Notes: generated from the sequence alone by a model not told the origin. A stretch of 64,000 nucleotides of DNA from Planctomycetota bacterium (GCA_020639295.1 JACKGY010000009.1:165148-229147), one strand, 5' to 3'; numbered from the stretch's first letter, positions 24,895 through 54,982 are shown. Program-made: numbers and translations.

Positions 24895-26295
24895 TCAGGC
24901 CTGGGCGTCGAGGTGCCGGCAGAACTCGGCGACGGCGTCGCGCACCTCGGGGTCGTTCTTCAGCGACTTGCCGATCTTGTCGGTGGCGTGGAGAACGGTC
25001 GAGTGATCGCGCCCACCGAAGTAGCCGCCGATCTCCGCCAGGGAATGGCTGGTGTACTTGCGGGCCAGATACATGCAGATCTGGCGCGGCAGGGTGATGG
25101 ACTGGAAGCGTTTCTTCGACTGCAGATCGGAAAGGCGCACGCCGTAGTGGTCGGTCACCTGACTGACGATCTCGTCGATCGTCACCCGGCGCCGACTCGA
25201 TCCGAGCAGGTCGCCGAGGGCCTCGTTCGCGGTCGCGACGTCGAGAGGGCGCTGCATCAGCCGCGCGAAGCCGATGAACCGGGTCACCGCGCCCTCGAGT
25301 TCACGGATGCTCCCCTTCAAGGAGCTGGCCAGGAACTCGCCGACCTCGTCATCGAGCTCGGTCTTCATGCGCCGGCACTTCTTGCGGATGATCGCCAGGC
25401 GGGTCTCGAAGGTCGGCGGTTCGATCGCGCAGACCATGCCCCAGCGGAATCGGGAGACCAGGCGATCCTCGAGGGTCGGAATGTCGCGCGGCGGACTGTC
25501 CGAACTCAGGATGATCTGCTTGTGGTCGTTGTAGAGCCGGTTGAAGGTGTGGAAGAACTCCTCCTGGGTGTGATCCTTGTTGGCCAGGAAGTGGATGTCG
25601 TCGATGACCAGGACGTCGAGCTCGCGGTAGCGCTCGCGGAAGTCCTCGATGCGGTTCTTCTCCAGGGCGGCGATGAACTCGTTGACGAACTGCTCGCAGG
25701 GCACGTACTCCATGCGGAGATCCGGGTCCCGCGCCAGCAGCTCGTGGCAGACGCCCTGAAGGAGGTGGGTCTTGCCCAGCCCGAGCCCACCGTGGATGAA
25801 GAGCGGATTGTAGACCCGGCCCGGATCCTCGATCACCGCCAGGGCCGCGGCATGGCTCATCCGGTTGCTGGGCCCGACCACGAAGTTGTCGAAGGTGTAG
25901 TCCTGGTTGAGCTGCGTGTTGATGTCCCGGGGCGAGTTCTTGCTCTTCCGGCGAGGCACGATCTCGCGGATGACCTCCTGCTGACCACCCTCGTCGGCCC
26001 GGCCGAGGAGCTCGAGACTCTCGTCGACCTTGAGGCTCTCGTCGATGTGGAACTCGAGCGCCGGGCAGGCGGAACCGATGGCCTCCTCGACCGCCTCGCG
26101 GATGATCTCGCCATACTGCTTCTTCAGCCAGGCGGAGTAGAAGCTGTTCGGCACGTCGATGACGAGGCGCTCGGGGTCGAACTCCGAGCAGTTCGTGTGC
26201 GAGAACCAGGTCTCGAATTGCTTCTCGCTGATGCGCGAGCGGATCGCGTCCAGGACCTTCTTCCAGCCGATGCTCAGCTCACGCGACGTTTCCAT
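24895..26295 (-). CDS. dnaA: Chromosomal replication initiator DnaA
   Basis: I chose ATG 26295 (METSRELSIGWKKVLDAIRSRISEKQFETWF) over the TTG at 26433. AAA+ motifs NPLFIHGGLGLGKTHLL and LVIDDIHFL are present, as is the C-terminal DNA-binding signature HSTVLHA. Confidence 0.95.
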   Translation of the reverse strand: METSRELSIGWKKVLDAIRSRISEKQFETWFSHTNCSEFDPERLVIDVPNSFYSAWLKKQYGEIIREAVEEAIGSACPALEFHIDESLKVDESLELLGRADEGGQQEVIREIVPRRKSKNSPRDINTQLNQDYTFDNFVVGPSNRMSHAAALAVIEDPGRVYNPLFIHGGLGLGKTHLLQGVCHELLARDPDLRMEYVPCEQFVNEFIAALEKNRIEDFRERYRELDVLVIDDIHFLANKDHTQEEFFHTFNRLYNDHKQIILSSDSPPRDIPTLEDRLVSRFRWGMVCAIEPPTFETRLAIIRKKCRRMKTELDDEVGEFLASSLKGSIRELEGAVTRFIGFARLMQRPLDVATANEALGDLLGSSRRRVTIDEIVSQVTDHYGVRLSDLQSKKRFQSITLPRQICMYLARKYTSHSLAEIGGYFGGRDHSTVLHATDKIGKSLKNDPEVRDAVAEFCRHLDAQA

Positions 26296-26483
26296 GGAGC
26301 CCCCCGAGGCCGGGGCGGACGATCCCGCCAGGCCTGGTCTCGATGCTTCAGATGCCGATAAGAGCGATCCCTTTGCGGTGACGATGCGGAGTTGGGCGAG
26401 GTCCCTCTTCTTCAGCTTCCTCGCGCCCTGCAAGTCTCCCGTCGTCGTCGTCGCATGGCCTCACCCGCGAGTGGTGAGGTCGG

Positions 26484-27865: not shown

Positions 27866-28528
27866 ATGAGCATTGTCAACACCCGCGACAAGACGATCAA
27901 CACGAAGATCGTGTACTACGGTCCAGGTCTGGGCGGCAAGACGACCAGCCTCCAGTTCGTGCACTCCGTGCTCGACGTCGACAGGGTGACCAAGATGGTC
28001 TCCTTGAAGACCGACGAGGAGCGGACGCTCTTCTTCGACTTCCTCCCGATCGACCTCGGCATGGTGGGTGGCTACAAGGTCAAGATCCAGGGCTTCACGG
28101 TGCCCGGCCAGGTCAAGTACAACCTGACCCGGAAGTACGTCCTCATGGGCGCGGACGCGGTGGTCTTCGTCGCCGACTCGCAGAAGAAGCGGATGGCGGA
28201 GAACGTCGAGAGCCTGAAGAACCTCGGCGAGAACCTGCGCGCGAACGGGCTCGATCCCGAGCAGGTTCCGCTCGTGCTCTGCTACAACAAGCGGGATCTC
28301 GCCGACGTCAGCAGCATCGAGGATCTCGATCGGACGCTCAAGCTCCGCGGCGAGCCGTCCTTCTCCACGACCGCGGCGGATGGCGGCGGCGTCTTCGAGG
28401 CCTTCGTCGAGGCCTCGCGCAGGATGATCGAGGCGGTCGGACTGAAGTATCAGCTGACCAGCGATGGCGTGGACATCGGTCGCCAGGCCGAGGATGCGCT
28501 CATGCGCTACATGCCCGCCTCGCGCTGA
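27866..28528 (+). CDS. mglA: MglA-type Ras-like small GTPase
   Basis: Close resemblance to Myxococcus MglA: KIVYYGPGLGGKTTSLQ (P-loop), ERTLFFDFLP (intrinsic Arg), FTVPGQVKY (catalytic Gln), VVFVADSQ, YNKRDL. Confidence 0.85.
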   Translation: MSIVNTRDKTINTKIVYYGPGLGGKTTSLQFVHSVLDVDRVTKMVSLKTDEERTLFFDFLPIDLGMVGGYKVKIQGFTVPGQVKYNLTRKYVLMGADAVVFVADSQKKRMAENVESLKNLGENLRANGLDPEQVPLVLCYNKRDLADVSSIEDLDRTLKLRGEPSFSTTAADGGGVFEAFVEASRRMIEAVGLKYQLTSDGVDIGRQAEDALMRYMPASR

Positions 28529-29658
28529 GCCTTGGCCCCGCCGTCCAGCACGCGTCGGTAGTAATCCTCGTAGAGCGGCAGGATCCGTTTCAGGCTGAAA
28601 CGTGCCTCCGCCTGCCGCCTCGCCTCCTGCGCCATCGCCCGCCGACGCTCGTCGTGTTCCAGCATCTCCGCGGCCGCCGCGGCCAGGGCCTCGACGTCGC
28701 CGACCGGGAAGAGCCGGCCACTTCGACCATCGTCGATCACCTCGGGCAGGCCGCCGGCATCGCTGGCCAGGACCGGCACGCCACAGGCCATCGCCTCGAG
28801 CGCCGCGAGTCCGAAGGACTCGTAGAGAGAAGGCAGGACGAAGAGATCGGCGCAGGTGAGGATCTTCTCGATCGCATCCTGCGAGCCGAGAAAATCGACC
28901 CGATCGGCAATGCCGAGCTGCCGGGCGCGCGCTTCCGCCGCCGGACGATCCGGACCATCGCCCACCATCAGCAAGCGGACCTTGCGTTGGGCGCCGAGGA
29001 TGGCCATGGCTTCGATCAGGTCGAGGACGCGCTTGACCGGACGGAAGTTCGAGATGTGCACGAGCATGCTCTCGCCGTCGTGGCGCATGCCCATCGCCTG
29101 CGGGCAGGGCGTCACCGCGAAGCGCTGCAGGTCGACGAAGTTCGAAATCACCTCGATCGCGGCCGAGGTGCCGATGATCGTCCGCGTCTCGCGCCGAAGG
29201 TACTCCGACACCGCCGTGATGCCGTCGGCCTCCTCGATCGCGTGCCGCGTCACCCGCCGATAGGCGGGGTCGTTGCCGACGATGGTGATGTCGGTGCCGT
29301 GGAGGGTGCCGATGACCTTGACGTCGCAGATGCCGCGCAGCATGTCGCGCGCGAGCAGCGCACTCACCAGATGGGGCACGGCGTAGTGGACGTGGATCAG
29401 GTCGAGATCATGGAGCTCGCAGACCTCGGCGAGCTTGGTGGCGAGCGCGAGGGCGTAGGGCGGGTACTTGAAGAGCGGGTATTCCTGGACGCTGACCTGG
29501 TGGTAGAAGACCTGGCGGCTGAAGGAGGTCAGACGAATCGGCGCCTCGTAGGCCAGGAAGTGGATCTCGTGGCCCTCCTCGGCGAGGGCCAGACCCAGCT
29601 CGGTGGCGAGCACGCCACTGCCGCCGTAGGTGGGATAGCAGGCGATGCCGATCTTCAT
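28507..29658 (-). CDS. bshA: N-acetyl-alpha-D-glucosaminyl L-malate synthase BshA (GT4)
   Basis: I chose the internal ATG at 29658. [35 protein letters not shown] matches the BshA N-terminus. GT4 EX7E region: [17 protein letters not shown]. It is the last gene of the bshC-bshB-bshA string. Confidence 0.85.
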
Positions 29659-30392
29659 TCGTCGTCGTTCCTGTACTTGCCGAAGCCGCTGAACAGCGCG
29701 AAGGGATCGCGGCTCGGGATCGGCCCGTCGACGAGGAAGGGCTCGCCGTAGCGCACGCCGATGAAGTGTCCCCAGTAGAGAGCCCGCCCCTCCCACCAGG
29801 ACCAGAAGTTCTCACCGGAGATGAAGGTCGCTCGTTCGTCGCTGTCGGGCCGATGAAACTGCGAGCGGTAGCAGGCGGCGGCTTCCTTCTTGGCGGCGAA
29901 ATGGTCGCTGATGTCGACGACGATGCTCGGCTTCAGCGGCGTGTGCGACATGTAGAACAGGAGCCCTTCGGGTCGCCATGGTTTCTGACCGGTGTCCCAG
30001 CGCTCGAGACCGGCGAGAAAACGAACCTGGCGGACCAAGGCACCGCTCGCCGCGTGGTCGGGATGCAGATCCTCCCAGTAGGGTGCCAGGACGATGCGTG
30101 GGCGCAGCCGTCGGATGCACCGGATCAGCTTGTCCTTTGACGCGTCATCGGGCGTCATGTGACCGTCCGGAAGATCGAGGATCTCCAGGTCACCGACCCC
30201 GAGGCGATCGGCGGCCGCCCGGGCTTCGCGGCGGCGCGTGGCCGGATCGCCCCGTGTTCCCATCTCCCCTGCGCTGAGATGGCAGATGGCCGTGCGCAAG
30301 CCGGCCGCGCGAGCGAGGAGCAGGGTCCCGCCGCAGTTCAGTTCGACGTCGTCGGGATGGGAGCCGATGGCCAGAACGTCGATGGTGTTCAT
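29655..30392 (-). CDS. bshB1: N-acetyl-alpha-D-glucosaminyl L-malate deacetylase BshB (PIG-L/LmbE family)
   Basis: ATG at 30392. VLAIGSHPDDVELNCGGTLL and HPDH motifs of LmbE-type deacetylases. 4-nt overlap with bshA. Confidence 0.85.
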   Translation of the reverse strand: MNTIDVLAIGSHPDDVELNCGGTLLLARAAGLRTAICHLSAGEMGTRGDPATRRREARAAADRLGVGDLEILDLPDGHMTPDDASKDKLIRCIRRLRPRIVLAPYWEDLHPDHAASGALVRQVRFLAGLERWDTGQKPWRPEGLLFYMSHTPLKPSIVVDISDHFAAKKEAAACYRSQFHRPDSDERATFISGENFWSWWEGRALYWGHFIGVRYGEPFLVDGPIPSRDPFALFSGFGKYRNDDE

Positions 30393-30393
30393 C

Positions 30394-31905
30394 TCAATCC
30401 TCGAGATCGATCTGCAGATCGTCCAGGGCCTCGTCATCGAGCGCGGTCACGACCCTGGCGAAGAAAGCGCCGTCGAGCGGAAGACCGAAGGCGAAGACGC
30501 CGAGGGCGCGATCCTGGCCACCGTGATCGAACCGCAGTTCGTGGCGCAAGCGATGTCGGGCACGCGCCGCGTCGCGGTCCTGACGCCGGGCTTCCTTGAG
30601 CCAGGCCTTGCGGAGCTGACGCAGGTCGGCGAGTGCCGATCGACGATAACTCACCAGCTCACGACGGAGGAACGGATCGGGATGATTCTCGATCCCCTGG
30701 AAGGCCTGGCGGAGGCCGGTTTCGACGCGGTCGAGTTCGGGAGCCTCGAAGCTGGGGGGCGACAAGTCCCAGCTCCGGGCCGGTCCTTCGAGGCCGAGTC
30801 GGTCGGCGAGCGAGCGCAACTCGTGATCGAGCACCAGCAAGGCAGGCCGCGGTCGGACCAGGGGCCGCGGTAGACCCAGGACGCCGAACAGGGGCATCAA
30901 CTGGGCCATGTAGGCACCCTCGGTCGGCCCGGAGATCTGGGCGACGACGGGAAAGAGCGCCTGCTGGGCGAGGGGGCGGGCCGCGGCCGCGGAACTCAAT
31001 CGTTCCGGTTCTGCCACCAGGATCCGATCGAGGTCCTCGGCCTCGAGGCGGAGGCTTCCGGCCCGCCAGCCGGGCGGCTCGGCATCCAGTCGCTGGCGAC
31101 CCTCGGGTCCGGAGAGGAAATGGAAGCTGGTCTCGGGTCCGGGAAGGGCCAGGGGAGCGGTGAAGCCGGCGATCTCGAGTTCGGTGCTGGCGGCCCGCAT
31201 GAGATCGATCAGTTCGAGGCGGTTGGTGAGGAGGTTGCGCCGGAAGGGAACGAGAATCTGCGCGAATCGATGCGGTTCGACCAGGATCAGGCCGCTGCCG
31301 GCCGTGAGCCGGGCCAGGAGCCGAAGCTGCCAGGCGCCGAAGGTCTCGTCCGGACGCGGGAGACAGTCCTCGGCGATCCCCTCTTCTGCGGCCAGGTCGG
31401 CCAGACGTCGGCGGTCGTTCTCGTCGAGGATGGTCTGGTGAAGAGACCGGGTTGGCGATCGGATCTCGAGTTCGAACCAGGACGGTTCCGGCCGATCGGG
31501 GCGGCTGCGCCTGAAGCAGCGGGCGGCCTCGGCGAAGTCGTGGTCTTCCGAAGCCGACCAGAACAGGGCCACGGCGGGAACGCCCTCGGCGCGCAGGGTC
31601 CGGGCGAGCCGAACGGCCGCGGCGGCCTTGGCCAGGGTCAGGAGAGGACCGGCGAAGAGACCGGGTTGCTGACCGGCGATGACGACGACGGCACCCTTCT
31701 CGAGTTCGGCGATGGCAGCACGGCGCGCGGGGTCGTCAGGCAAGTCGGCATCGGCGCTGCGAATGCAGTCGACGACGTCGGCCGTGCAGGGAGCATGAAG
31801 GAGCATGCGCGCCCGGAGCAGGAGTTCGTCGTGCCCGAGGCCGCCACCGAGCAGACGTCGGGCCTGGGGATCGCCCTGGCTCAAAGCCGTCATGAGCCCG
31901 GTCAT
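30394..31905 (-). CDS. bshC: Bacillithiol biosynthesis cysteine-adding enzyme BshC
   Basis: VVIAGQQPGLFAGPLLTLAKAAAAVRLA...VPAVALFWSASEDHDFAEA matches the BshC signature (GQQ.GLF.GP....K......A....PVFW.A.EDHDF.E). 503 aa. Confidence 0.8.
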   Translation of the reverse strand: MTGLMTALSQGDPQARRLLGGGLGHDELLLRARMLLHAPCTADVVDCIRSADADLPDDPARRAAIAELEKGAVVVIAGQQPGLFAGPLLTLAKAAAAVRLARTLRAEGVPAVALFWSASEDHDFAEAARCFRRSRPDRPEPSWFELEIRSPTRSLHQTILDENDRRRLADLAAEEGIAEDCLPRPDETFGAWQLRLLARLTAGSGLILVEPHRFAQILVPFRRNLLTNRLELIDLMRAASTELEIAGFTAPLALPGPETSFHFLSGPEGRQRLDAEPPGWRAGSLRLEAEDLDRILVAEPERLSSAAAARPLAQQALFPVVAQISGPTEGAYMAQLMPLFGVLGLPRPLVRPRPALLVLDHELRSLADRLGLEGPARSWDLSPPSFEAPELDRVETGLRQAFQGIENHPDPFLRRELVSYRRSALADLRQLRKAWLKEARRQDRDAARARHRLRHELRFDHGGQDRALGVFAFGLPLDGAFFARVVTALDDEALDDLQIDLED

Positions 31906-32645
31906 CGAGGTCGAAGTCCATGAAGGACGCAGCGAGGGCTGTCGATGCGATGCGGTTCACCGGCGAGATCGCCCAGGCGACTCTTTACGTCGAGTCCGGC
32001 CCGCAGGCAGAGCGCCTCGAGCTCTTCGGGCTCATAGAGGCGGACGGACTCGTGGTAGTTGTGCCGGCGACCGTCATCGGCCAGCACCTCGACATCCTTC
32101 AGGACCCGGCGCGAAGCCTCGTCGATCGAGCGGCGCTCGTGGATCCGGAATTGCGCCTGGCGGCGTCGGGATTCGGGCACGAGGTCGCGACGGACCCGGG
32201 CGGCATTGAGGAAGTCGAGCAGGAAGGGCGCGTCGGGTCGCAGGACGCGCGCGATCTCCTGGAGGACCAGGAGGTCCTCGTCGCTGCTCTCGAAGTAGCC
32301 GAAGGAGGTGAAGAACGAGAAGGCCGCGGCCATCGTGCCGGTCGCGATCGGCAGGCGACGCATGTCGGCGCGGACGAAGAGGGAATGATCGAGTCGGCGT
32401 CGACGCGCGAGACCGAGGAGGTCGCGGGAGAGGTCGATGCCGATCACGGGGAAGCCACGTCGGTTGAGGGCCAGGGCATGGCGACCATGACCACAGCAGA
32501 GGTCGAGGACCGGGGCAGCCGGTTCCGGACCGAGGAGGTCGAGGACGAAGTCGACTTCGGCCAGGGCCTGTTCGTCACTGCGATGGGGGTAGACCTCGCG
32601 GTAGACCGCGTCGAAGGCCCGTTCGTACCAGGCAGGTTCCGACAT
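31902..32645 (-). CDS. Class I SAM-dependent methyltransferase co-transcribed with bshCBA
   Basis: SAM motif VLDLCCGHGRHALALNRRGFPVIGIDLS. ATGA overlap with bshC and 1-nt overlap with pyrF. Confidence 0.8.
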   Translation of the reverse strand: MSEPAWYERAFDAVYREVYPHRSDEQALAEVDFVLDLLGPEPAAPVLDLCCGHGRHALALNRRGFPVIGIDLSRDLLGLARRRRLDHSLFVRADMRRLPIATGTMAAAFSFFTSFGYFESSDEDLLVLQEIARVLRPDAPFLLDFLNAARVRRDLVPESRRRQAQFRIHERRSIDEASRRVLKDVEVLADDGRRHNYHESVRLYEPEELEALCLRAGLDVKSRLGDLAGEPHRIDSPRCVLHGLRPR

Positions 32646-40819: not shown

Positions 40820-41584
40820 ATGAGCCGCATCGTCGCTGTCTTGAGTCAGGATTCCGGGGTCGGCAAGACAACCACAGCCCTTGCCTTGGCGCAGGCCTTT
40901 GCGCTGGGCGGACAGGGCGCGCTCTTCGTCGACATGGACCCAGGCGGGGGCGCTACGCGCCTGGTTGGCCTGGCCCGACCCAACGCCGGCCTGCTTCAAC
41001 GCATCCTCCAGGGTGATGACCCGGTCGCCAAGACCGGTCTGCTCGTCCGCTCCCTGGACGTTGGCCTGGACATCATTCCTTCCGACGCGAGCGCCGCCGA
41101 GTACGAGCCGAGCGTGGCCGATTTCGGGCGCTTTCAGGCGGCCCTCGACGTTTTCCGGCTCCAGTATCCTTGGATCGTCCTGGATGCTCCACCCTCCCAC
41201 GACGGCTGGGCTCGCTGCTCCCTGATGGCCGCCAGTCACATCGTCGTGCCGCTTCAGGCCGAGCTCTTCGCGCGTGAGCATGCCTCCCAGGTCCTTCAGT
41301 TCGTCGACGAGACCATTGGCGAACGCCGCGATCCACCGCGTGTCCTGCTGTTGTTCACGATGATGCGGGATCACGACAGTCTCTCTGCCGACGTCCTACG
41401 CGACCTGAAGGCACTATATGGGCCTCGTCTCGCTCGAACGATCGTGCCTCGCGACCCCGCCATTCCCGAGGCCGCCATGCTCGGTCGAACCCTGCTTCAA
41501 CACGACTTCGAGTCCCGCGCAGCGCGGGCTTATGTCCAATTTGCAAAGGAACTTATGAACCATGACAGAGCGCAAGCTCGGTAA
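40820..41584 (+). CDS. parA: ParA/Soj-family partition ATPase with a non-canonical Walker A (no signature lysine)
   Basis: IVAVLSQDSGVGKTTTALALA, DMDPGGGAT, IVLDAPPS and the C-terminal IVPRDPAIPEAAMLGRTLLQHDFESRAARAYVQFAKEL are collinear with Soj. The ATG is preceded by AGGAGAG. It sits directly upstream of parB and overlaps it. Confidence 0.82.
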   Translation: MSRIVAVLSQDSGVGKTTTALALAQAFALGGQGALFVDMDPGGGATRLVGLARPNAGLLQRILQGDDPVAKTGLLVRSLDVGLDIIPSDASAAEYEPSVADFGRFQAALDVFRLQYPWIVLDAPPSHDGWARCSLMAASHIVVPLQAELFAREHASQVLQFVDETIGERRDPPRVLLLFTMMRDHDSLSADVLRDLKALYGPRLARTIVPRDPAIPEAAMLGRTLLQHDFESRAARAYVQFAKELMNHDRAQAR

Positions 41585-42491
41585 GGGCCTCGACTTCCTG
41601 ATGAAGCGCACGGCGCCTGCTGCCATCGAGGTAGCGCCCCAGCCGAAGCCGGAAGCGCCCGCCAAGCGGGAGCCCGCGCAGCGCATCGCCACGACCTCGA
41701 TCCGTCCCAACCCCTATCAGCCGCGGCGGAGCTTCGGCATCGAACAGCTCAACGAGCTGATCGAGAGCATTCGAATCCACGGGATCATCCAGCCCATTGC
41801 CGTCCGAGTCGCCCCGGACGGCTTCGAGCTGATCTCCGGCGAGCGACGCTGGCGAGCTGCTCAGGAGCTTGGTCTCGAGACGGTTCCTGTCGTGGTTCAC
41901 GAAGCCGACGACCAGGCCATGCTCGAGTTCGCGCTGATCGAGAACATCCAGCGCGAGGATCTCGATCCGGTCGAAAAGGCCAAGGCCTACCGGCAGCTCA
42001 TTCGGCAGTTCAACCTGACCCAGGAGGAGGCCGCCCGTCGGTTGGGCCAGAAGCGCTCGACCGTGGCCAACTTCATGCGCCTGCTCGAACTCCCCGCGCC
42101 GATCCAGGACCTGCTGGTCGAGCGCCTGCTGCCGATGGGGCACGCCCGGGCCCTGCTCGCCATCCAGGGCGAGAGCCGGCAGGTCGATCTGGCCCGGCAA
42201 GCGGCCCAGGGCAAGCTCACCGTTCGGGACATCGAGCGCCTGGCTCAGCTCCAGGGGGCCTCGACCCTGGCCGCGGATGCGGCCCTGCAGCGCAAACGGC
42301 AGGATCCCCACCTCGCCGAGGTCTCGGGCCGCATCCGTGAAGCGCTGGGCACCAAGGTCTCGCTGGCGGGCGGCGCGAAGCGCGGCAAGATCGTCATCGA
42401 GTACTACGACACCGATTCGCTGAATCGCATCCTTGCCTGCATCGAGAACGGTGCCGAACGACGCGATCGCGAGGCCAGCGCCGGCCTCTGA
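41562..42491 (+). CDS. parB: Chromosome partitioning protein ParB/Spo0J
   Basis: KLGKGLDFLM, IRPNPYQPRRSF, IQPIAVR, LISGERRWRAAQELG (CTP-binding GERR box) and an HTH region LTQEEAARRLGQKRSTVANFMRLL. Confidence 0.92.
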   Translation: MTERKLGKGLDFLMKRTAPAAIEVAPQPKPEAPAKREPAQRIATTSIRPNPYQPRRSFGIEQLNELIESIRIHGIIQPIAVRVAPDGFELISGERRWRAAQELGLETVPVVVHEADDQAMLEFALIENIQREDLDPVEKAKAYRQLIRQFNLTQEEAARRLGQKRSTVANFMRLLELPAPIQDLLVERLLPMGHARALLAIQGESRQVDLARQAAQGKLTVRDIERLAQLQGASTLAADAALQRKRQDPHLAEVSGRIREALGTKVSLAGGAKRGKIVIEYYDTDSLNRILACIENGAERRDREASAGL

Positions 42492-48868: not shown

Positions 48869-49603
48869 TCAGAAGCGGCGCCGCGGCGCGTGGGTGTAGC
48901 GGCAGTAGGGACAGCGCAGGGCGTCGAGTCCGAAGACGCGGGCGTAACCCTGAGAACGGTGGACGCGTACGTCGTCGCCGCTATCCAGATCGAGAACCTT
49001 GGGGTTGTTGTCCGCCGTCATGCTGGCGGGCCCGCGGATGATCTCCACCAGCAACTCGTCGCCCTCATCGAGCACCAGGTGGTTGTTGAACTCGGTGCAG
49101 TTGTTGAAGGCGATGCCGATGCCATTGCGGAAGGTCGTGTTGGTGATGCTGCGGAAGTAGGCCGAGCTGCCGAAGGGGGTCGAGATCACCAGGCCGTCCC
49201 CGATGACCTCGTCGGTGGCTCGCTCGCCGTTGACGCTGACGATGAAGCGCACGGCGCTGCGCAGGTCGGCGTTGCGGATCAGGATGTCGTTGAGGCCGGT
49301 GACCTTGTGCCCGCGAACCGAGGCCTCGAGCTTGATCAGGCGGGTCTCCTGCAGCTCGCCCCGCATCAGGCGTTCGAGCATCGCCCGGTCGCCATGACGC
49401 GCGCACTTCACGCAGCTGGTGCCGTCACGGATCGGCAGCTTCGGCACGCCCGGGTATTCGATCTCGGCGCCGATCAGCGTCCCGTCACCGCCATAGGTGA
49501 CCAGGGCGTCGGCCTGGCGGGGATCCTGGACGATCTCGAAGCCCAGCTGGCGCAGCAGGGAGTCGACGTCGGCCGCATTGGTTCCCAGGATCCCGAGCTT
49601 CAT
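48869..49603 (-). CDS. nadK: NAD(+) kinase
   Basis: ADALVTYGGDGTLIGAE (GGDG motif) and the NE/D region VSTPFGSSAYFRS-like ISTPFGSSAYFRSI. Confidence 0.85.
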   Translation of the reverse strand: MKLGILGTNAADVDSLLRQLGFEIVQDPRQADALVTYGGDGTLIGAEIEYPGVPKLPIRDGTSCVKCARHGDRAMLERLMRGELQETRLIKLEASVRGHKVTGLNDILIRNADLRSAVRFIVSVNGERATDEVIGDGLVISTPFGSSAYFRSITNTTFRNGIGIAFNNCTEFNNHLVLDEGDELLVEIIRGPASMTADNNPKVLDLDSGDDVRVHRSQGYARVFGLDALRCPYCRYTHAPRRRF

Positions 49604-49657: not shown

Positions 49658-50761
49658 TCAGCGGAGCTTCAGGGTCGCGACCGAAAGGACGGCGCAGAGG
49701 AGGGAGACGATCCAGAAGCGGAGGACCACCTTGGTCTCGGCCAGACCCTGGTGCTGATAGGAGTGGTGGGCCGGGGCGCGGAAGAAGAAGCGTCGCCCGA
49801 GCCAGCGGATGCCGACGTAGTCCTGGAACAGGACCGAGAAGGCCTCGAACACGAAGATGCCGCCGGCGATCAGGAAGAGGAGCTCCTGCTTGGACAGCAC
49901 CGCGATGGCCGCGAGGCTGCCGCCGAGCGCCTGGGAGCCGGTGTCGCCCATGAACATCTGGGCCGGGTAGCCATTGAACCAGAGGAAGCCGAAACAGGCG
50001 CCCACCACCGCCGCGGCGAAGATCGCCACGTCCTGGATGCCGTCGATCTCGGCGAAACCGAAGGTCTTGGCGGCCAGGACGTTCCAGGACAGGTAGGCGA
50101 AGAAGCCGAACACGGCCGCGGTCATCGCGCTGGGCAGGACCGCCAGGCCGTCGAGGCCGTCGGCGAAGTTGATCGCGTTGGTGATCGCGACGATGGCGAA
50201 GACGACGAAGAAGGGATAGAGCAGGCCGAGGTCGAGCGAAGCCTCAGCGGGAAAGGGCATGATCAGGCGGGTCCGCAGCTCGGGTGAGAAGGGTGACGAG
50301 CCCTCGGCGCCGATCATCAGCGCGAAGAAGGCGGCGAAGGCGAGCTGGAGCAGGATCTTCAGGCTTCGCGACATGCCGCCGTCGCTCGACTGGCGGCGCA
50401 CCTTGAGCAGGTCGTCGAGCACGCCCAGGCCGCCGTACCACAGGGTCGTGAGCACCATCAGACCGCTGATTCCCGACTCCAGGTCGCAGAAGGCGGTCGC
50501 CCCGACCGTGATCGCCGCCACGATCAGGATGCCGCCCATCGTCGGCGTCCCGGTCTTGCTGTGCGAGAAGTAGCTGTCGTAGTCGCGCACGCGGTCGCGG
50601 AAGCCCCGGCGGTAGAGGAGGGCGGCGACGCGCCGGCCGGCGAGGAAGACCACCAGGAAGGACAGGATGAAGGCACCGACCGAGCGCACCATCACCGGCG
50701 CCGTGGGCAGGAAGATGCGGATGAAGTCGGGCACCATCAGGTCGTAGAGCCAGGGGATCAC
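49658..50761 (-). CDS. mraY: Phospho-N-acetylmuramoyl-pentapeptide transferase
   Basis: SKTGTPTMGGILI, NAINFADGLDGLA and FMGDTGSQALGG motifs. The start overlaps the stop of the upstream fusion ORF (ATGA). Confidence 0.93.
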   Translation of the reverse strand: MIPWLYDLMVPDFIRIFLPTAPVMVRSVGAFILSFLVVFLAGRRVAALLYRRGFRDRVRDYDSYFSHSKTGTPTMGGILIVAAITVGATAFCDLESGISGLMVLTTLWYGGLGVLDDLLKVRRQSSDGGMSRSLKILLQLAFAAFFALMIGAEGSSPFSPELRTRLIMPFPAEASLDLGLLYPFFVVFAIVAITNAINFADGLDGLAVLPSAMTAAVFGFFAYLSWNVLAAKTFGFAEIDGIQDVAIFAAAVVGACFGFLWFNGYPAQMFMGDTGSQALGGSLAAIAVLSKQELLFLIAGGIFVFEAFSVLFQDYVGIRWLGRRFFFRAPAHHSYQHQGLAETKVVLRFWIVSLLCAVLSVATLKLR

Positions 50762-53700
50762 GCACCGTCCTCCATGGCGCGGCCGTCCGCCTCGCCGCTC
50801 AGGGCCTTGCGCAGGCCGGCCAGGGTCTCCTTCAGCTCGAAGGAAGGCGTGAAGGAGTCGCAGGTGACCAGGAGGTCGTCGAGTCGCGAGCGCAGGAGAT
50901 CACGATCCTCGATCACGCCGCGGCGGTAGAGGTCGTGGTAGGCGCGGACGACGGCATGCCGCACCCGCCAGTTCGGATGGTAGTGGAGCTGGCGGAGCAC
51001 CTCGGCGACGCCGGCGTCCAGGGCGGCCGCCGCCAGGCCGCGGACCGCCTCCTTGGCCACCTCGAAGTTGCGCTCGAGGGCCATGGTCTTGAGCCGGCGC
51101 AGGGCGAGGCGGCGACCGGCCGGGCTCAGCTCCTTGGCGTAGAACGCGATCGCCTGGCAGGCCGTGGAACGGACCTCGAAGTAGGGATCGGTCATCGCCA
51201 TCAGGAGCGCCCGCTCGACGTCCTCGTCGAGGGTCTCGAGCTGACGGAGCGAATGCAGGGCGTTGCGCCGGACGAAGCCCGGCTCGGCGAAGTCGCCGCC
51301 GAAGAGGCGCTGCGCCAGCGGCGCGGGCCGGCGATCGGTCACGATCGAGACCAGCTGATAGCGCAGCGACTTGATCTTGAGCAGGCCCACCAGCTTGACG
51401 CCGATGTTGCGCTGCTTCCAGTTGGGCTTGGCGAGGAACTGCTTCACCCGGCCGGTCAGGTTGGCGTCGCGAACGCTCTCCGGATGGTTGAGCGCCAGGC
51501 CGAGGAGCTGCTCCGGGCGCAGGCAGTGGACGTTCATGTGGCGCGGGTCGACGCGCTCGCGCCGCGGCAGCCGCGGCATCAGCCGGGAGAACCTCGCCAT
51601 GACCTCGTCGAGTTCGGCCGAGCGCAGCGCCCAGCAGACACCGAGGTAGGCCGGCAGGGCGGCGAGGATCGGGGTACCGAGGACGACCAGGCGGGACAGG
51701 AGATCGGGCAGGGCGTCGAAGCCCTTCACCACCTGGAGGCAGAGGTAGGCGGCGAGGGCGGCGAAGGCGGCGCCGACCAGCGCGCGCCAGAGCGAGGGCA
51801 GGACGTCCTTCCACTCGAAGCCGAGGCCGTCGGCGTTCAGCTTGCGCCGGAGGTGGCCGACCCGGAAGGCGGCATTGGCCATGAACGCGATGGTGGTGCC
51901 GAGGGCCACGCCGCCGATGCCGAAGCCGGCCGCCACCAGGGCCAGGCTCGTGCCCACGTTCACCACGACCGCGCCGAGGTTGATCAGTACCGCCTGACCG
52001 ATCTCGAGCCGGGCGGCGTAGAAGCGGCCCATCAGGCCCTGGATGCCCCAGCCGACCAGGCCGAGCGCGTAGCAGGCGAAGGCGGTCGCGACCGCCCGCG
52101 CATCGCCCCGACTGAAGACGCCGTGGCGCAGGAGGAAGTCGACGATCGGCTGCGCCATCACCACCATCACCGCCGAGATCGGCAGCAGGAGGAAGGCGTT
52201 CCAGGCGATGCCGCTGGTGACGATCCGGCGGCAGGCGTCCTGGTCGCGCGCGGCCTGGCGTTCCGAGTACTCGCGCAGGGCCACGGTGTTGATCGACTGG
52301 GCCACCAGGGCGAAGGGGAGCTGGAACAGCACCATGCCGTAGTAGAGCGCCGAGACCCCGCCGATCGCGAGGCGCGAGACGATGGCCAGGTCGACCAGGG
52401 TCGAGATCTTGGTGATGCCGACGTCGGCGACGATCTTGGGCGCCGCCGCCCGCAGCTTGCGCATGCCCGGTTCGCGCCAGCCCAGCGCCGGTCGCAGGGA
52501 GATTCCCGTGCGCGTCCGCATCGTCGAGGACAGCAGCACCGGGAGCTGGACCACGAGCTGGCCGAGGCCACCGGCCAGCAGGCCGATGCCGATCGCCGAC
52601 AGGCCGAAGCGCGGATAGGCGAGGGCGCCGCCGATCAGGCCGACGCTGAACATCACCGAGGAATAGGCCGGCGCGGCGAAGCGGCCATGCGCCTTGAGGA
52701 TCGCGGCGACGATGGCCGCGAGGGTGACGAAGACCAGATAGGGCTGCATCAGCCGGGTGAGGGCGATGGCGTCGCCGAGGAAGCCCTTGGCGGCGAAGCC
52801 GGGCACGATCAAGGGCAGCCACCAGGGCGTGGTGGCGATCAGCGCCAGGCTGGCGAGGCAGGTGAGCAGGAGGCCCCAGCTCAGGGTCGAGCGCAGGAAG
52901 CGCCGGGCCTCGTCCGCGCGGCCGCCACCCTTCAGCATCATGTAGGTGGGCAGGATGGTGGCGTCGACCGCGTTCTCGGCGAAGACGCCGCGGAAGAGAT
53001 TCGCCGCGCCCAGGCTGGCGGCGACGATGTCCATCACCCGGCCGGCGCCGAAGGTGCTGGCCAGGACCACCTCGCGGACCAGGCCGCAGAGCCGCGACAG
53101 CAAGGTCCCGAGACCGGTCACCAGGACGCTGGCCACGACCCGGCCGTGGCGAGGCTCGAGCTCGCGGGTCTCGATGCGGGCATTGAAGCGCAGGACCTGG
53201 TCGCCCAGCCGCAGGTGCTGGCCGGCGATCAGCCGGTGCGGTCCGTCGACCGGCTCGTCCTCGACCCGGATCTCGCCGGCGCGTCGGAACAGGGTGAAGA
53301 CGGTGGTCTCGCGGTTGTGTCCGGTGCGCCGGATGAGGGCGCGCGCGCCGCGCGCCGCGCTGCCGACCCGGACGTCGGCGGCCGCGGAGTCGGCCACCAG
53401 CGTGACCGGGAAGAAGAGCTCCTCGGTGCTGCCGTCCTCGCGCTCGAGGCTGCCGACGAGTACCTGGGTGCTGGTCGGTCCGGGGCGGCGGCGCTGGCTG
53501 GCCAGCTCGCGGACGAGCCGGGCGTTCGCCGGCCCGGCGTCCGGAACGGCCAGGTTCCGGGCCGAGCGGGCCATCCGCTCCAGGCGCTCCGGGTCACCGA
53601 GGAGGTCGCGCACCTTGCGGGCGAGCTGGTCGCCATGGACGCGGGTGATGGTGCCCTCGGCGGCCTCGTACATCTCCTCGAAGAGCACCTCGGCGCTGCC

Positions 53701-54663
53701 GCGCTCCTTGAGGGAAACGGCGTTGACCAGCTGATGGTCGTCGGCTCCGTCGCTCTTGGGGATCAGGAGCGCCGGCTTGCCCAGCACGGCCAGCTCCATG
53801 ACCACGCCCGCGCCGGCCCGGGTGACCACGAGGTCGGAGGCGGCATAGGCGTCCTCGATCTGATCGAAGTAGCGCTTCAGGATGTAGCGGTTCTTCTTGT
53901 CCTCGGGCACCTCGGCGGCGCGCAGGCGGTCGTTCGTGTCCTTCCAGGCGTCGTAGTAGGCGTTCTCGGTCAGGCCGGTGCTGTGGATGAGGGTGACCCG
54001 CTCGTCTTCGAGCAGCCGGTTGAGGCCTTCGACCGTGGCCCGGTTGATCGAGCGCGAGCCCATGGAGCCGCCAAGGACGAAGGCCACCTGCTGATCACGC
54101 GGGATGCGCAGTCGTTCCCGCGCGGCCATCCGGTCGCCGGCGGCGATCCGGCGGCGGACCGGGTAGCCGGTGAGGACCGCGCGGTCCTTGGGGAAGTAGC
54201 CGAGGGTCTCCTCGAAGCTGACGCCGATCCGGCTGGCGAAGCGCGCCAGGAGCATGTTGGCCTTGCCGGGCTTGACGTTCTGTTCGTGCAGGAAGATCGG
54301 CCGGCGGAGCAGCGCCGCCGCCAGCACCGCGGGCACCGAGACGTAGCCGCCGGTGGCGATCACGACCTGCGGCCGGAAGCGGAGGATCAACACGAGGGAA
54401 CGCAGGCTGGCGTAGAGGAGCGAGAGGGCGAAGATCAGGAAGGCGCGCGGTCGTCGCGGCGAGGCGAAGGGCCGGGCGGGGATCGCCACGAAGGGGATCT
54501 TGGCGCCCTCGGTGATCTTGCGCTCCGGACCCCGCCCGGAGCCGACGTAGAGAAGGACCGACTCCGGCTCCTGCTCGAGGATCTCCCGGCTGATGGCCAG
54601 ATTCGGCATCACGTGGCCGCCGGTACCGCCGCCCGTGAAGAGATAGCGCTTGCCCTCGGTCAA
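50758..54663 (-). CDS. Fusion protein: MurG-like GT28 glycosyltransferase, FHA-like linker, MurJ (MviN) lipid II flippase, HEAT-repeat C-terminal domain
   Basis: One uninterrupted 1301-codon ORF. Residues 1-390 are MurG-like: YLFTGGGTGGHVMPNLAIS, FLHEQNV, VTRAGAGVVMELAVLGKPALLIP. Residues about 400-495 form a beta-rich segment ending LIAGQHLRLGDQVLRF. Residues about 508-1025 are MurJ-like: LLSRLCGLVREVVLASTFGAGRVMDIVAASLGAANLFRGVFAENAVDATILP plus about 14 TM helices. Residues about 1075-1250 hold HEAT-like repeats (DPYFEVRSTACQAIA, HPNWRVRHAVVRAY). Confidence 0.85.
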   Translation of the reverse strand: MTEGKRYLFTGGGTGGHVMPNLAISREILEQEPESVLLYVGSGRGPERKITEGAKIPFVAIPARPFASPRRPRAFLIFALSLLYASLRSLVLILRFRPQVVIATGGYVSVPAVLAAALLRRPIFLHEQNVKPGKANMLLARFASRIGVSFEETLGYFPKDRAVLTGYPVRRRIAAGDRMAARERLRIPRDQQVAFVLGGSMGSRSINRATVEGLNRLLEDERVTLIHSTGLTENAYYDAWKDTNDRLRAAEVPEDKKNRYILKRYFDQIEDAYAASDLVVTRAGAGVVMELAVLGKPALLIPKSDGADDHQLVNAVSLKERGSAEVLFEEMYEAAEGTITRVHGDQLARKVRDLLGDPERLERMARSARNLAVPDAGPANARLVRELASQRRRPGPTSTQVLVGSLEREDGSTEELFFPVTLVADSAAADVRVGSAARGARALIRRTGHNRETTVFTLFRRAGEIRVEDEPVDGPHRLIAGQHLRLGDQVLRFNARIETRELEPRHGRVVASVLVTGLGTLLSRLCGLVREVVLASTFGAGRVMDIVAASLGAANLFRGVFAENAVDATILPTYMMLKGGGRADEARRFLRSTLSWGLLLTCLASLALIATTPWWLPLIVPGFAAKGFLGDAIALTRLMQPYLVFVTLAAIVAAILKAHGRFAAPAYSSVMFSVGLIGGALAYPRFGLSAIGIGLLAGGLGQLVVQLPVLLSSTMRTRTGISLRPALGWREPGMRKLRAAAPKIVADVGITKISTLVDLAIVSRLAIGGVSALYYGMVLFQLPFALVAQSINTVALREYSERQAARDQDACRRIVTSGIAWNAFLLLPISAVMVVMAQPIVDFLLRHGVFSRGDARAVATAFACYALGLVGWGIQGLMGRFYAARLEIGQAVLINLGAVVVNVGTSLALVAAGFGIGGVALGTTIAFMANAAFRVGHLRRKLNADGLGFEWKDVLPSLWRALVGAAFAALAAYLCLQVVKGFDALPDLLSRLVVLGTPILAALPAYLGVCWALRSAELDEVMARFSRLMPRLPRRERVDPRHMNVHCLRPEQLLGLALNHPESVRDANLTGRVKQFLAKPNWKQRNIGVKLVGLLKIKSLRYQLVSIVTDRRPAPLAQRLFGGDFAEPGFVRRNALHSLRQLETLDEDVERALLMAMTDPYFEVRSTACQAIAFYAKELSPAGRRLALRRLKTMALERNFEVAKEAVRGLAAAALDAGVAEVLRQLHYHPNWRVRHAVVRAYHDLYRRGVIEDRDLLRSRLDDLLVTCDSFTPSFELKETLAGLRKALSGEADGRAMEDGA

Positions 54664-54982
54664 GACCGTCCCCTGCCCGCGCCGGGGCGCCCTCGAGGAC
54701 CCCCGCCGCCATTCCCGTCGCCCGCGTCGCCGCGCCGCGCATCCTGCTGGCGTTCAAGACCTTGTCCGCGAGTCCGCCCCGGGGCCCGCGCGGCCGAGAA
54801 CACGGTCCGAGGATAGCCGGGGGAGGGGGCAGCCGGGACGCTCGCCCGGGCTGCGGACGGGCCGCAGCCCAGGGCCGGCAAGGGTCCTCGCGGCGCTTTG
54901 ACCGAGGAGCTTCTGGTCAGTCGCCCGCGGAAAGGTCAAGGTGGGGAGCAGCGTTCGTCACGACATCCCAGGGAGCAGCGTC

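What the first reader, a model, noticed from the sequence alone, without database searches (positions are those of the whole stretch)
50758..54663. One 1301-aa ORF joins MurG, an FHA-like linker, the lipid II flippase MurJ and HEAT repeats, and overlaps mraY
Seen in sequence: the reading frame has no stop from 54663 to 50761. It carries a GT28 MurG-like module (GGGTGGH; nt 54663-53494) and a beta-rich linker ending LIAGQHLRLGDQVLRF (nt 53466-53179). A full MurJ/MviN module with about 14 TM helices follows (nt 53142-51589), then about 175 aa of HEAT-like repeats (nt 51441-50914). The stop overlaps the mraY start (ATGA). Established knowledge: MraY makes lipid I, MurG converts it to lipid II on the cytoplasmic face, and MurJ flips lipid II. 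These are normally separate genes, and murG usually sits in a mraY-murD-ftsW-murG dcw block, which is absent here. MurJ has both termini in the cytoplasm, so the MurG and HEAT modules would both be cytoplasmic and the fusion is topologically coherent. In Mycobacterium tuberculosis the MurJ homologue MviN is regulated through an FHA protein (FhaA) that binds its phosphorylated pseudokinase domain. Inference: this could be a hard-wired synthesis-to-flipping module in which the FHA-like and HEAT parts act as regulatory or scaffolding surfaces. The linker lacks the canonical FHA residues (GR, SxxH, NG), so that assignment is tentative.
Basis: partly seen in the sequence, partly recalled or inferred. 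Interest (0 to 1): 0.75.

Follow-up and report, generated by a model that had tools for sequence, protein, structure and literature searches.

The report
Fused lipid II synthase-flippase gene
One real 1301-residue gene joins the enzyme that completes the cell-wall precursor lipid II (MurG) to the protein that flips it across the membrane (MurJ), via an FHA domain and a HEAT-repeat tail, directly ahead of mraY. It belongs to a widespread family that I found described in no paper, and whose constant feature is a HEAT domain encoded immediately upstream of mraY.

Summary
Window 50758-54663 (-) is one uninterrupted ORF, with GC3 of 0.94-0.96 in frame across all four modules. The identical protein occurs in two independent assemblies, and more than 55 full-length homologues (29-83% identity) exist, so it is not a frameshift or an assembly join.

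The modules are:
- MurG, aa 1-377, with all catalytic motifs invariant across the family.
- A true FHA fold, aa ~396-505, that lacks the phosphothreonine-binding residues.
- Full-length MurJ, aa ~509-1022, above NCBIfam's equivalog cutoff.
- A HEAT solenoid, aa ~1061-1290.

The stop overlaps the start of an equivalog-grade mraY. The overlap is GTGA, not ATGA.

New here: the fusion is one of five arrangements of a single module.
- A: MurG-FHA-MurJ-HEAT.
- B: MurG-HEAT.
- C: MurJ-MurG-HEAT.
- D: MurG-HEAT, mraY, then a separate murJ.
- E: HEAT alone.

In 80 of 80 loci with sequence downstream of the HEAT domain, mraY comes next on the same strand. No other dcw gene lies within 10 kb in any locus.

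Best reading: a covalently coupled unit for the membrane steps of lipid II (MraY, MurG, MurJ), with HEAT as the MraY-linked adaptor.

Not resolved: whether these genomes also keep canonical murG, mraY or murJ.

No paper on this fusion was found. It is a new variant of a known kind, of moderate to high interest.

The parts
50758..54663 (-). Whole 1301-aa ORF (TTG start, TGA stop): MurG-FHA-MurJ-HEAT fusion, 'A-type'
   Evidence: GC3 is 0.94-0.96 in frame throughout. The identical ORF is found in two independent assemblies. 59 aligned homologues.
53533..54663 (-). MurG (GT28) module, aa 1-377
   Evidence: PF03033 and PF04101. PDB MurG 3s2u at 4e-37 and 1f0k at 2e-31. GGTGGH, GG, HEQN, GGS, E290 and H310-Q311..N314 are invariant or nearly invariant across the family. 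TIGR01133 scores 228, below the 250 cutoff; canonical dcw MurGs score 298 and 315.
53149..53478 (-). Degenerate FHA domain, aa ~396-505, about 10 residues before TM1 of MurJ
   Evidence: The linker profile hits FHA domains in the PDB: EmbR 5e-6, KIF1B 7e-6, Ki-67 1e-4, FhaA/Rv0020c 3e-3. AF2 pLDDT is 91.6 with an all-beta fold. The top 50 Foldseek hits are all FHA domains. The phosphothreonine triad is not conserved, and the corresponding loops are rich in Arg/Lys. Pfam reports no FHA match at E<=1.
51598..53139 (-). MurJ (MOP/MVF lipid II flippase) module, aa ~509-1022
   Evidence: PF03023 at 2e-76. TIGR01695 at 280 bits, above the 235.6 cutoff, covering model positions 2-505 of 506. PDB MurJ 7waw at 1e-39 and E. 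coli 6cc4 at 5e-36. The equivalents of E. coli R18, R24, D39 and R52 (R524, R530, D545, R558) are kept in 56-59 of 59 sequences. The equivalent of E. coli R270 is V778 and is not conserved.
51484..51597 (-). Post-TM14 cytoplasmic linker, aa 1023-1060; A-type homologues share a 'VNPYCL.P..LL' motif here
   Evidence: Consensus of alignments A1 and A2. AF2 pLDDT is 71-95 over this stretch.
50794..51483 (-). HEAT-repeat solenoid, aa ~1061-1290, ending in the conserved motif T..(F).P.F.LKE
   Evidence: HEAT_2 at 33.2 bits, above the 27.7 cutoff. The domain profile hits alphaRep and the PP2A-A subunit at 1e-24 to 1e-12. AF2 pLDDT is 92.9, all helical. Foldseek returns ARM, HEAT and CpcE/F structures. 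The same domain is 44% identical in Gemmatimonadota MurG-HEAT proteins and 29% identical in MurJ-MurG-HEAT proteins.
50758..50761 (-). GTGA overlap of the fusion's stop (TGA) and the mraY start (GTG), suggesting translational coupling
   Evidence: The same 4-nt overlap is seen in L005, L086 and L087; L003 has a 3-nt gap.
49658..50761 (-). mraY (phospho-MurNAc-pentapeptide transferase, 367 aa), the invariable downstream partner gene
   Evidence: TIGR00445 at 267.5 bits, above the 192 cutoff. PF00953. mraY follows the HEAT domain on the same strand in 80/80 loci that have sequence downstream.
54664..54940 (-). Upstream intergenic region shared with a divergent LamG/MAM gene, presumably holding the promoter. 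An SD-like AGGGGA lies at 54674-54669, 5 nt before the TTG start.
   Evidence: Read from the sequence. Gene layout. No promoter scan was run.

Best explanation
The ORF is a genuine single gene for a four-module inner-membrane protein. Its parts, from N- to C-terminus, are a cytoplasmic MurG (lipid I + UDP-GlcNAc gives lipid II), a degenerate FHA domain that tethers MurG about 10 residues from TM1 of MurJ, a complete MurJ flippase core, and a cytoplasmic HEAT solenoid. It is the first gene of an operon, and its stop overlaps the start of mraY.

Proposed mechanism (inferred): MraY makes lipid I. The HEAT domain, which across the family is always encoded directly upstream of mraY, docks the fusion onto MraY. 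The tethered MurG converts lipid I to lipid II beside the cytoplasmic entry of MurJ. From my own knowledge of MurJ structures, both ends of MurJ (TM1 and TM13/14) flank the lipid II portal and groove. MurJ then flips the product. The result would be 1:1 stoichiometry and co-localisation of the last three membrane steps of peptidoglycan precursor synthesis.

The FHA domain most likely acts as a phospho-independent spacer or adaptor, perhaps facing the membrane, because its canonical binding loops are rich in Arg/Lys.

Shown: gene integrity, domain identities, conservation of catalytic residues, conserved synteny with mraY, and recurrent linkage of MurJ to this module. Inferred: enzymatic activities, HEAT-MraY docking, substrate hand-off and the role of the FHA domain.
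For: - Real gene: uninterrupted frame with uniform GC3; identical ORF in two assemblies; more than 55 full-length homologues at 29-83% identity.
- MurG looks active: every motif known from E. coli MurG is invariant or nearly so.
- MurJ is complete and above the equivalog cutoff, with four essential N-lobe residues kept in 56-59 of 59 sequences.
- MraY is above the equivalog cutoff here and in loci of types A, B and C (267, 309, 271, 254 bits).
- MurJ is linked to this MurG-HEAT lineage in three ways: inserted (A), N-terminal (C: P0056, P0119, L087, L088 and others) and as a separate gene just after mraY (D: L142, L166).
- HEAT followed by mraY in 80/80 loci, including HEAT-only genes in L105 and L144.
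- Core-genome setting near dnaA, dnaN, gyrB and parB, with synteny shared with a 54%-identical relative.
- Topology: MurJ model coverage of 2-505/506 implies the full 14-TM core. That both termini face the cytoplasm is established knowledge for E. coli MurJ.
Against: - The MurG module scores below NCBIfam's equivalog cutoff (228 vs 250; family range 190-237), whereas canonical dcw MurGs score 298-315. It is therefore a divergent MurG subfamily.
- The equivalent of E. coli MurJ R270, essential in E. coli, is Val here and is not conserved in the family.
- In a neighbour-joining tree without bootstraps, module-linked MraYs from different phyla form one clade, apart from canonical dcw MraYs of Thermodesulfobacteriota. 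The module therefore probably moved between phyla and could be an extra copy.
- I could not test whether the same genomes also carry canonical murG, mraY or murJ.
- No data bear on physical HEAT-MraY contact, on substrate channelling or on expression.
Confidence: 0.62

Rival explanations
1. The module (murG-FHA-murJ-HEAT plus mraY) is a second, accessory lipid II pathway. It coexists with canonical dcw-encoded mraY and murG and a stand-alone murJ, and it is used under particular conditions or at a particular site, much as MglA backs up MurG in Streptomycetaceae.
For: - The MurG subfamily is divergent and below the equivalog cutoff.
- Module-linked MraYs cluster across phyla, apart from canonical MraYs of the same phylum, which suggests horizontal spread of the module.
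- The module is never next to other dcw genes (0 hits in 90 loci; 34 of them have more than 8 kb on both sides).
- There is a precedent for a functional MurG paralogue outside the dcw cluster (MglA, PMC8092295).
Against: - Duplicate equivalog-grade MraY genes are uncommon (my own knowledge, not tested here).
- In the window the module sits in conserved core-genome synteny near the replication origin.
- No second copy is seen in any fetched locus, although that covers only +-10 kb.
Confidence: 0.28
2. The module builds and flips a different polyprenyl-linked glycan (for example a secondary cell-wall or surface polymer precursor), using MurG-like, MraY-like and MurJ-like paralogues rather than making peptidoglycan lipid II.
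For: - MurG scores below its equivalog cutoff.
- The MurJ R270 equivalent is missing.
- The module lies outside the dcw cluster.
- Weak secondary matches to Polysacc_synt_3 and PssE/PssD models.
Against: - MraY passes the MraY-specific equivalog model by 60-115 bits.
- MurJ passes its own equivalog cutoff.
- The MurG acceptor-side HEQN motif and the donor-side motifs are invariant.
- The best structural relatives by sequence are bona fide MurG and MurJ.
- HEAT-only loci are flanked by genes that look like L,D-transpeptidases, judged by reading a YkuD-type HGC motif in the translations; this was not confirmed by a profile search.
Confidence: 0.06
3. The long ORF is an artefact: a sequencing frameshift, a chimeric assembly join, or a GC-rich 'shadow' ORF, and the real genes are separate.
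For: - High-GC DNA gives many long spurious ORFs. For example, a 1293-aa ORF lies on the opposite strand at 50935..54816.
- Raw reads were not available to me.
Against: - The same 1301-aa product was called in two independent assemblies.
- More than 55 homologues from many samples share the same architecture and length.
- GC3 is about 0.95 in one frame across all junctions.
- Both junction regions fold as confident domains.
Confidence: 0.02

Closest known systems
Canonical MurG (GT28, E. coli 1F0K / P. aeruginosa 3S2U), encoded in the dcw cluster
   Same: Two-domain GT-B fold. G-loops, HEQN, E269-equivalent and (H/Q)Q..N motifs are all present. 30-40% identity to ordinary stand-alone MurGs.
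   Different: Below the TIGR01133 cutoff. Encoded outside the dcw cluster. Always linked to a HEAT domain, and here covalently joined to FHA and MurJ.
MurJ/MviN lipid II flippase (E. coli 6CC4, T. africanus 5T77)
   Same: Full-length MOP/MVF core above the equivalog cutoff. Equivalents of E. coli R18, R24, D39 and R52 are conserved.
   Different: Large cytoplasmic domains at both termini. The R270 equivalent is replaced by Val.
M. tuberculosis MviN (Rv3910) regulated by FhaA (PDB 3OUN)
   Same: An FHA domain is associated with the cytoplasmic side of a MurJ homologue. The FhaA FHA domain is among the structural matches (TMt 0.80).
   Different: In M. tuberculosis the FHA domain is a separate protein that binds a phosphorylated pseudokinase domain of MviN. 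Here the FHA domain is fused in cis at the N-terminus, there is no kinase-like domain, and the phosphothreonine-binding residues are lost.
Natural Mur chimeras surveyed in PMC10214165 (MurE-MurF, MurC-Ddl, MurC-MurB, MurG-MurC, MurD-FtsW, MraY-MurG)
   Same: Fusions of peptidoglycan-precursor enzymes, interpreted there as stabilising a biosynthetic complex or fixing stoichiometry.
   Different: MurG-MurJ and MurG-HEAT are not among the listed types. This fusion joins a cytoplasmic-face enzyme to the transporter of its own product.
MglA, the alternative lipid II synthase of Kitasatospora/Streptomyces (PMC8092295)
   Same: A divergent MurG homologue encoded outside the dcw cluster that can make lipid II.
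   Different: MglA is a stand-alone paralogue that coexists with MurG. It has no HEAT, FHA or MurJ fusion and no mraY partner, and it belongs to a different phylum.

Membership tests
MurG (GT28 lipid II synthase) | GT28 N- and C-terminal domains (GT-B fold) | tested here: met
   PF03033 at 1e-28 and PF04101 at 1e-25. Aligns to 3s2u and 1f0k over aa 3-377.
MurG (GT28 lipid II synthase) | Catalytic and substrate motifs: G-loop GGTGGH, GG loop, HEQN, GGS loop, Glu of the alpha/beta/alpha motif, (H/Q)Q..N | tested here: met
   G11-H17, G105-G106, H126-N129, G198-S200, E290, H310, Q311 and N314 are kept in 53-57 of the 55-57 homologues that are not gapped at those columns.
MurG (GT28 lipid II synthase) | Score above NCBIfam's equivalog cutoff (TIGR01133, 250.25 bits) | tested here: not met
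   228 bits. Relatives score 190-237. Canonical dcw MurGs score 298 and 315.
MurG (GT28 lipid II synthase) | Transfers GlcNAc from UDP-GlcNAc to lipid I | not testable with these tools
   Needs an enzyme assay or complementation.
MurJ (MOP/MVF lipid II flippase) | Full-length MurJ core above the equivalog cutoff | tested here: met
   TIGR01695 at 280.1 bits, above 235.55, covering model positions 2-505 of 506. PF03023 at 2e-76.
MurJ (MOP/MVF lipid II flippase) | Charged cavity residues essential in E. coli (R18, R24, D39, R52, R270) | tested here: inconclusive
   R524, R530, D545 and R558 are conserved (56-59 of 59). The R270 equivalent is V778, and that column is V/I/L in most members.
MurJ (MOP/MVF lipid II flippase) | 14 TM helices with both termini in the cytoplasm | tested here: inconclusive
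   Inferred from end-to-end model coverage. My crude hydropathy scan could not count the helices cleanly. No topology predictor was available.
FHA domain | 11-stranded beta-sandwich FHA fold | tested here: met
   AF2 pLDDT 91.6. The top 50 Foldseek PDB hits are all FHA domains, TM-score about 0.6-0.8. The linker profile finds FHA domains at 5e-6 to 3e-3.
FHA domain | Phosphothreonine-binding residues (Arg of GR, Ser/His of SxxH, Asn of NG) | tested here: not met
   Arg in 3/38 sequences, Ser in 4/38, Asn in 0/38. The His position is Arg in 25/38.
FHA domain | Pfam PF00498 or PF16697 match | tested here: not met
   No FHA family was reported at E<=1.
HEAT repeat proteins | Tandem helical-hairpin repeats with the HEAT consensus | tested here: met
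   HEAT_2 at 33.2 bits, above 27.7. The domain profile hits alphaRep and PP2A-A at 1e-24 to 1e-12. AF2 gives an all-helix solenoid at pLDDT 92.9. Foldseek returns ARM and HEAT structures.
MraY (downstream gene) | Equivalog-level match to phospho-MurNAc-pentapeptide transferase | tested here: met
   TIGR00445 at 267.5 bits, above 192.05.
dcw-cluster-encoded lipid I/II genes | mraY and murG embedded in murF-mraY-murD-ftsW-murG-murC | tested here: not met
   No MurE/F/D/C/B, FtsW, Ddl, FtsQ or FtsA hit in the window or in 90 related loci. Canonical loci show that order.
M. tuberculosis-type MviN/FhaA regulation | Pseudokinase domain on MurJ that is phosphorylated and bound by a canonical FHA domain | tested here: not met
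   No kinase-like domain in the ORF. The FHA phosphothreonine site is degenerate. No Pkinase gene in the annotated flanks.

The most novel reading that the evidence does not exclude
The HEAT domain is a dedicated, previously unrecognised MraY-binding adaptor. It nucleates a lipid II 'metabolon'. In different lineages evolution has welded MurG, and twice independently MurJ, onto this adaptor. The window's protein would then be a natural single-chain MurG-MurJ machine that hands lipid II directly from synthase to flippase. The mobile HEAT-mraY module would have displaced the dcw-encoded mraY and murG in several phyla. If so, this is comparative ('Rosetta stone') evidence that MurJ acts immediately after MurG, and a ready-made object for capturing lipid II transfer structurally.
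Probability: 0.35. Interest if true: 0.8.

Novelty: new variant of a known kind. Interest (0 to 1): 0.66.

Why it matters
How lipid II passes from MurG to its flippase is still inferred mostly from genetics in a few model organisms, as is whether the membrane steps MraY, MurG and MurJ work as a physical complex.

A conserved natural fusion of MurG and MurJ has arisen in two different topologies and is always paired with mraY through a HEAT domain. That is independent comparative evidence for a direct functional link between the three steps.

It also offers a stable single-chain complex for cryo-EM and for reconstituted synthesis-plus-flipping assays. And it points to a candidate partner protein of MraY, the HEAT domain, which I found described in no paper in the held library.

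There is a practical consequence as well. Automated annotation calls these proteins only 'MurJ' or 'glycosyltransferase'. Orthology-based surveys that apply coverage thresholds are known to miss fusion genes such as murCB (PMC12283558), so they may score murG or murJ as absent in lineages that carry this fusion.

Tried and rejected
1. Scan of GTDB genomes with the full-length alignment, to get the taxonomic spread and look for second copies. 
2. The crude Kyte-Doolittle TM count was too noisy for MurJ's amphipathic helices. I relied on end-to-end model coverage instead.
3. I considered a full-length structure model and dropped it. The protein exceeds the 1200-residue limit, and the tool returns no inter-domain error or coordinates. 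The two prediction jobs went to the FHA and HEAT modules instead.
4. Literature searches found no description of this fusion: 'MurG-MurJ', 'MurJ-MurG' and 'MurJ fused' gave 0 papers; 'MurG' + 'HEAT repeat' + 'peptidoglycan' gave 0 papers; dcw and fusion reviews were also checked.
5. I considered using the 'longest contig' values in protein-search output to spot a second MurG or MraY on the same chromosome. I did not run it, because only the top 120 hits are listed and orthologues from other genomes would fill them.
6. A frameshift or assembly artefact was rejected.
7. A kinase-regulated, M. tuberculosis-like mechanism was rejected as a membership claim. There is no pseudokinase domain, the FHA site is degenerate, and no kinase gene lies nearby.


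Full report

Yes. The ORF listing gives a 1301-aa ORF at 50758..54663 on the minus strand, and the translation has no internal stop. TTG at 54663 is the first possible start after the upstream stop. It lies 10 codons before the MurG G-loop, homologues begin at the same place, and an AGGGGA sits 5 nt upstream. In this ~70% G+C DNA long ORFs occur on both strands, including a 1293-aa one on the opposite strand. However, third-position G+C in the reading frame is 0.936, 0.942, 0.959 and 0.939 for the four modules, against 0.44-0.78 in the other frames, so one frame is coding from end to end. The identical protein was called on contigs from two independent assemblies, SRR12358675 and SRR12358676. 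The protein database holds more than 55 full-length homologues of 1190-1350 aa at 29-83% identity. A frameshift or assembly join is therefore excluded for practical purposes.

**2. What are the parts?**

*MurG.* Pfam finds GT28_N at 8-146 and GT28_C at 194-370. The module aligns to P. aeruginosa and E. coli MurG (3s2u at 4e-37, 1f0k at 2e-31). GGTGGH, the GG loop, HEQN, GGS, E290 and H310-Q311..N314 are invariant or nearly so across the family. It is nevertheless a divergent subfamily. TIGR01133 scores 228 bits (family range 190-237), below the 250 cutoff, while two canonical dcw MurGs score 298 and 315.

*Linker, aa ~396-505.* A profile built from 38 homologues finds the FHA domains of EmbR (5e-6), KIF1B (7e-6), Ki-67 and M. 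tuberculosis FhaA/Rv0020c (3e-3). AlphaFold2 gives an all-beta domain at pLDDT 91.6. All 50 best Foldseek matches in the PDB are FHA domains, including the FhaA-MviN complex 3oun. The phosphothreonine-binding residues are not kept: Arg in 3/38 sequences, Ser in 4/38, Asn in 0/38. The corresponding loops are rich in Arg/Lys. Pfam's own FHA models do not reach E<=1. This is an FHA fold with a degenerate site.

*MurJ.* PF03023 scores 2e-76. TIGR01695 scores 280 bits (cutoff 235.6) and covers model positions 2-505 of 506. The best PDB relatives are MurJ structures (1e-39 to 2e-25). The equivalents of E. coli R18, R24, D39 and R52 are kept in 56-59 of 59 sequences. The equivalent of R270 is V778, and that column is hydrophobic in most members. 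This is a caveat.

*C-terminus, aa ~1061-1290.* HEAT_2 is above threshold. The domain profile hits alphaRep and PP2A-A at 1e-24 to 1e-12. AlphaFold2 gives a helical solenoid at pLDDT 92.9. Foldseek returns designed ARM/HEAT proteins and CpcE/F.

*Downstream gene.* ORF 49658..50761 is MraY at equivalog level, 267.5 bits against a 192 cutoff.

**3. Surroundings**

The window is core chromosome around the replication origin. It holds dnaA (24895-26433), dnaN, gyrB, parB, an rpoD-like sigma factor, lptD, purM, fmt and rsmB. No other peptidoglycan or division gene is present. The order fusion, mraY, NAD-kinase-like gene, Cys/Met PLP enzyme, purM, PPIase, parB is shared with a Planctomycetota MAG whose fusion is 54% identical. 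Named relatives of the fusion are MAGs labelled Planctomycetota and, at about 30% identity, Candidatus Aminicenantes.

**4. The wider family: the main new result**

The same MurG subfamily and the same HEAT domain occur in other arrangements.

| Type | Arrangement | Size | Examples and evidence |
|---|---|---|---|
| A | MurG-FHA-MurJ-HEAT | ~1300 aa | the window and its full-length homologues |
| B | MurG-HEAT | ~650-780 aa | Gemmatimonadota MAGs, 44% identical in both domains; isolates Desulfacinum hydrothermale and Thermodesulforhabdus norvegica; Latescibacterota and Ca. Hatepunaea MAGs |
| C | MurJ-MurG-HEAT (permuted) | ~1160-1220 aa | |
| D | MurG-HEAT, mraY, then a separate murJ | - | L142, L166 |
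| E | HEAT-only protein of ~300-390 aa before mraY | ~300-390 aa | L105, L144 |

- I collected 90 loci, including 80 from a metagenome scan seeded with the HEAT domain.
- The counts by type were: 10 A plus 2 partial, 44 B plus 17 with too little upstream sequence to tell B from C, 9 C, 2 D and 2 E.
- In all 80 loci with sequence downstream of the HEAT domain, mraY follows on the same strand, often with a 4-nt overlap.
- In none of the 90 loci is there a hit to MurE, MurF, MurD, FtsW, MurC, MurB, Ddl, FtsQ or FtsA; 34 of them have more than 8 kb on both sides. The reference proteins came from a canonical dcw locus that I verified.
- A search of 1.84 billion representative proteins with the HEAT profile gives 378 hits at E<=1e-30. 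Of the best 150, 74 carry the whole domain once. Most of these are B-type, and about 25 are short proteins with no MurG part.

The constant element of the family is therefore the HEAT domain followed by mraY. MurG is usually fused to the HEAT domain, and MurJ has been attached in two different topologies or placed next door.

**5. How it most likely works**

Shown: an intact gene, four identified modules, conserved catalytic residues in MurG and in the N-lobe of MurJ, an equivalog-grade MraY coupled at the stop/start overlap, and repeated genetic linkage of the three membrane steps.

Inferred: MraY makes lipid I. The HEAT domain docks the fusion to MraY. MurG, held by the FHA domain about 10 residues from TM1, converts lipid I to lipid II beside MurJ's cytoplasmic entrance. 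MurJ then flips it. From my own knowledge of MurJ structures (Kuk et al.), lipid II is thought to enter between TM1 and TM8, with its tail lying in the TM13/14 groove. Attachment of MurG at the N-terminus (A-type) or after TM14 (C-type) would both place it near that portal. The FHA domain, having lost its phosphothreonine site and gained basic loops, is more likely a spacer, a membrane-facing element or a protein adaptor than a phospho-sensor. No kinase or pseudokinase is in the ORF or in the annotated flanks.

**6. Rivals**

- *(a) Accessory second pathway.* This is supported by the divergent MurG, by the module's isolation from the dcw cluster, and by a neighbour-joining tree (no bootstraps) in which module-linked MraYs from Planctomycetota, Gemmatimonadota, Desulfacinum and C-type loci form one clade apart from canonical dcw MraYs of Thermodesulfobacteriota. 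MglA is a precedent for a functional extra MurG (PMC8092295). I put this rival at about 0.28.
- *(b) A non-peptidoglycan glycolipid pathway.* This is unlikely given the equivalog-level MraY and MurJ and the intact MurG acceptor motif. About 0.06.
- *(c) Artefact.* About 0.02.

**7. Comparison with what is known**

The survey of natural Mur chimeras lists MurE-MurF, MurC-Ddl, MurC-MurB, MurG-MurC, MurD-FtsW and MraY-MurG, but not MurG-MurJ or MurG-HEAT (PMC10214165). Phrase and combination searches of the held library found no paper describing the fusion. Databases hold these proteins with automatic names only: 'MurJ', 'glycosyltransferase' or 'MurG'. The M. tuberculosis FhaA-MviN system is an analogy only (FHA next to MurJ), not a membership. 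Its defining pseudokinase domain and canonical FHA site were tested here and are absent.

**8. Verdict**

This is a new variant of a known kind: known enzymes in an architecture I found undescribed, inside a broad module family that I also found undescribed. Interest is about 0.66. It would surprise and be useful to people working on peptidoglycan, but its physiological status (sole pathway or accessory one) is still open.

Noticed in passing
L105:9491-10663 and L144:1844-2737 (related loci): A HEAT-only protein of ~300-390 aa lies directly upstream of mraY with no MurG fused. In L105 the upstream ORFs look like L,D-transpeptidases (a YkuD-type HGC motif read in the translations, not confirmed by a profile search). 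This suggests the HEAT domain's primary partner is MraY.
   Followed up: partly
L087, L088, L099, L107, L115, L134, L136, L137, L146; proteins P0056, P0058, P0117-P0120, P0151: A circularly permuted architecture, MurJ-MurG-HEAT (~1160-1220 aa), also followed by mraY. It appears to be an independent second fusion of MurJ to the same MurG-HEAT lineage.
   Followed up: partly
L142:7129-8238 and L166:5584-6024: A separate murJ gene lies immediately downstream of murG-HEAT and mraY. This is an unfused version of the three-gene set.
   Followed up: no
window 52330-52332 (codon for V778 of the fusion): The position equivalent to E. coli MurJ R270, essential in E. coli, is Val here and V/I/L in most family members. 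Neighbouring columns carry Arg in some members but not in the window's protein.
   Followed up: partly
window 20509-26433 (-): gyrB, a small ORF, dnaN and dnaA lie in a row, with parB at 41562-42491. The window therefore spans the chromosomal replication-origin region. The origin itself was not mapped.
   Followed up: no
window 28507-32645 (-): A GT4-family glycosyltransferase (28507-29796), a BshC-like Rossmann protein (30394-31905) and a methyltransferase lie close together. This may be a bacillithiol-type thiol biosynthesis cluster in a Planctomycetota-like genome.
   Followed up: no
window 27866-28528 (+): A 220-aa ORF has weak Arf/Ras-family small-GTPase matches (Pfam 5e-6 and 9e-5).
   Followed up: no
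window 12996-18085 (+): A 945-aa ORF with no Pfam match lies directly upstream of, and overlaps, an LptD-like outer-membrane protein gene (15830-18085).
   Followed up: no
window 50935-54816 (+): A 1293-aa ORF on the opposite strand spans almost the whole fusion gene. Given the homology and GC3 evidence for the minus strand, I take it to be a shadow ORF of GC-rich DNA, not a gene.
   Followed up: partly
window 48869-49603 (-): A 244-aa protein matches only the C-terminal domain of NAD kinase, well below all equivalog cutoffs. It follows mraY here and in relatives L001 and L003, and lies about 6 kb further downstream in L005. It may be co-transcribed with mraY.
   Followed up: no
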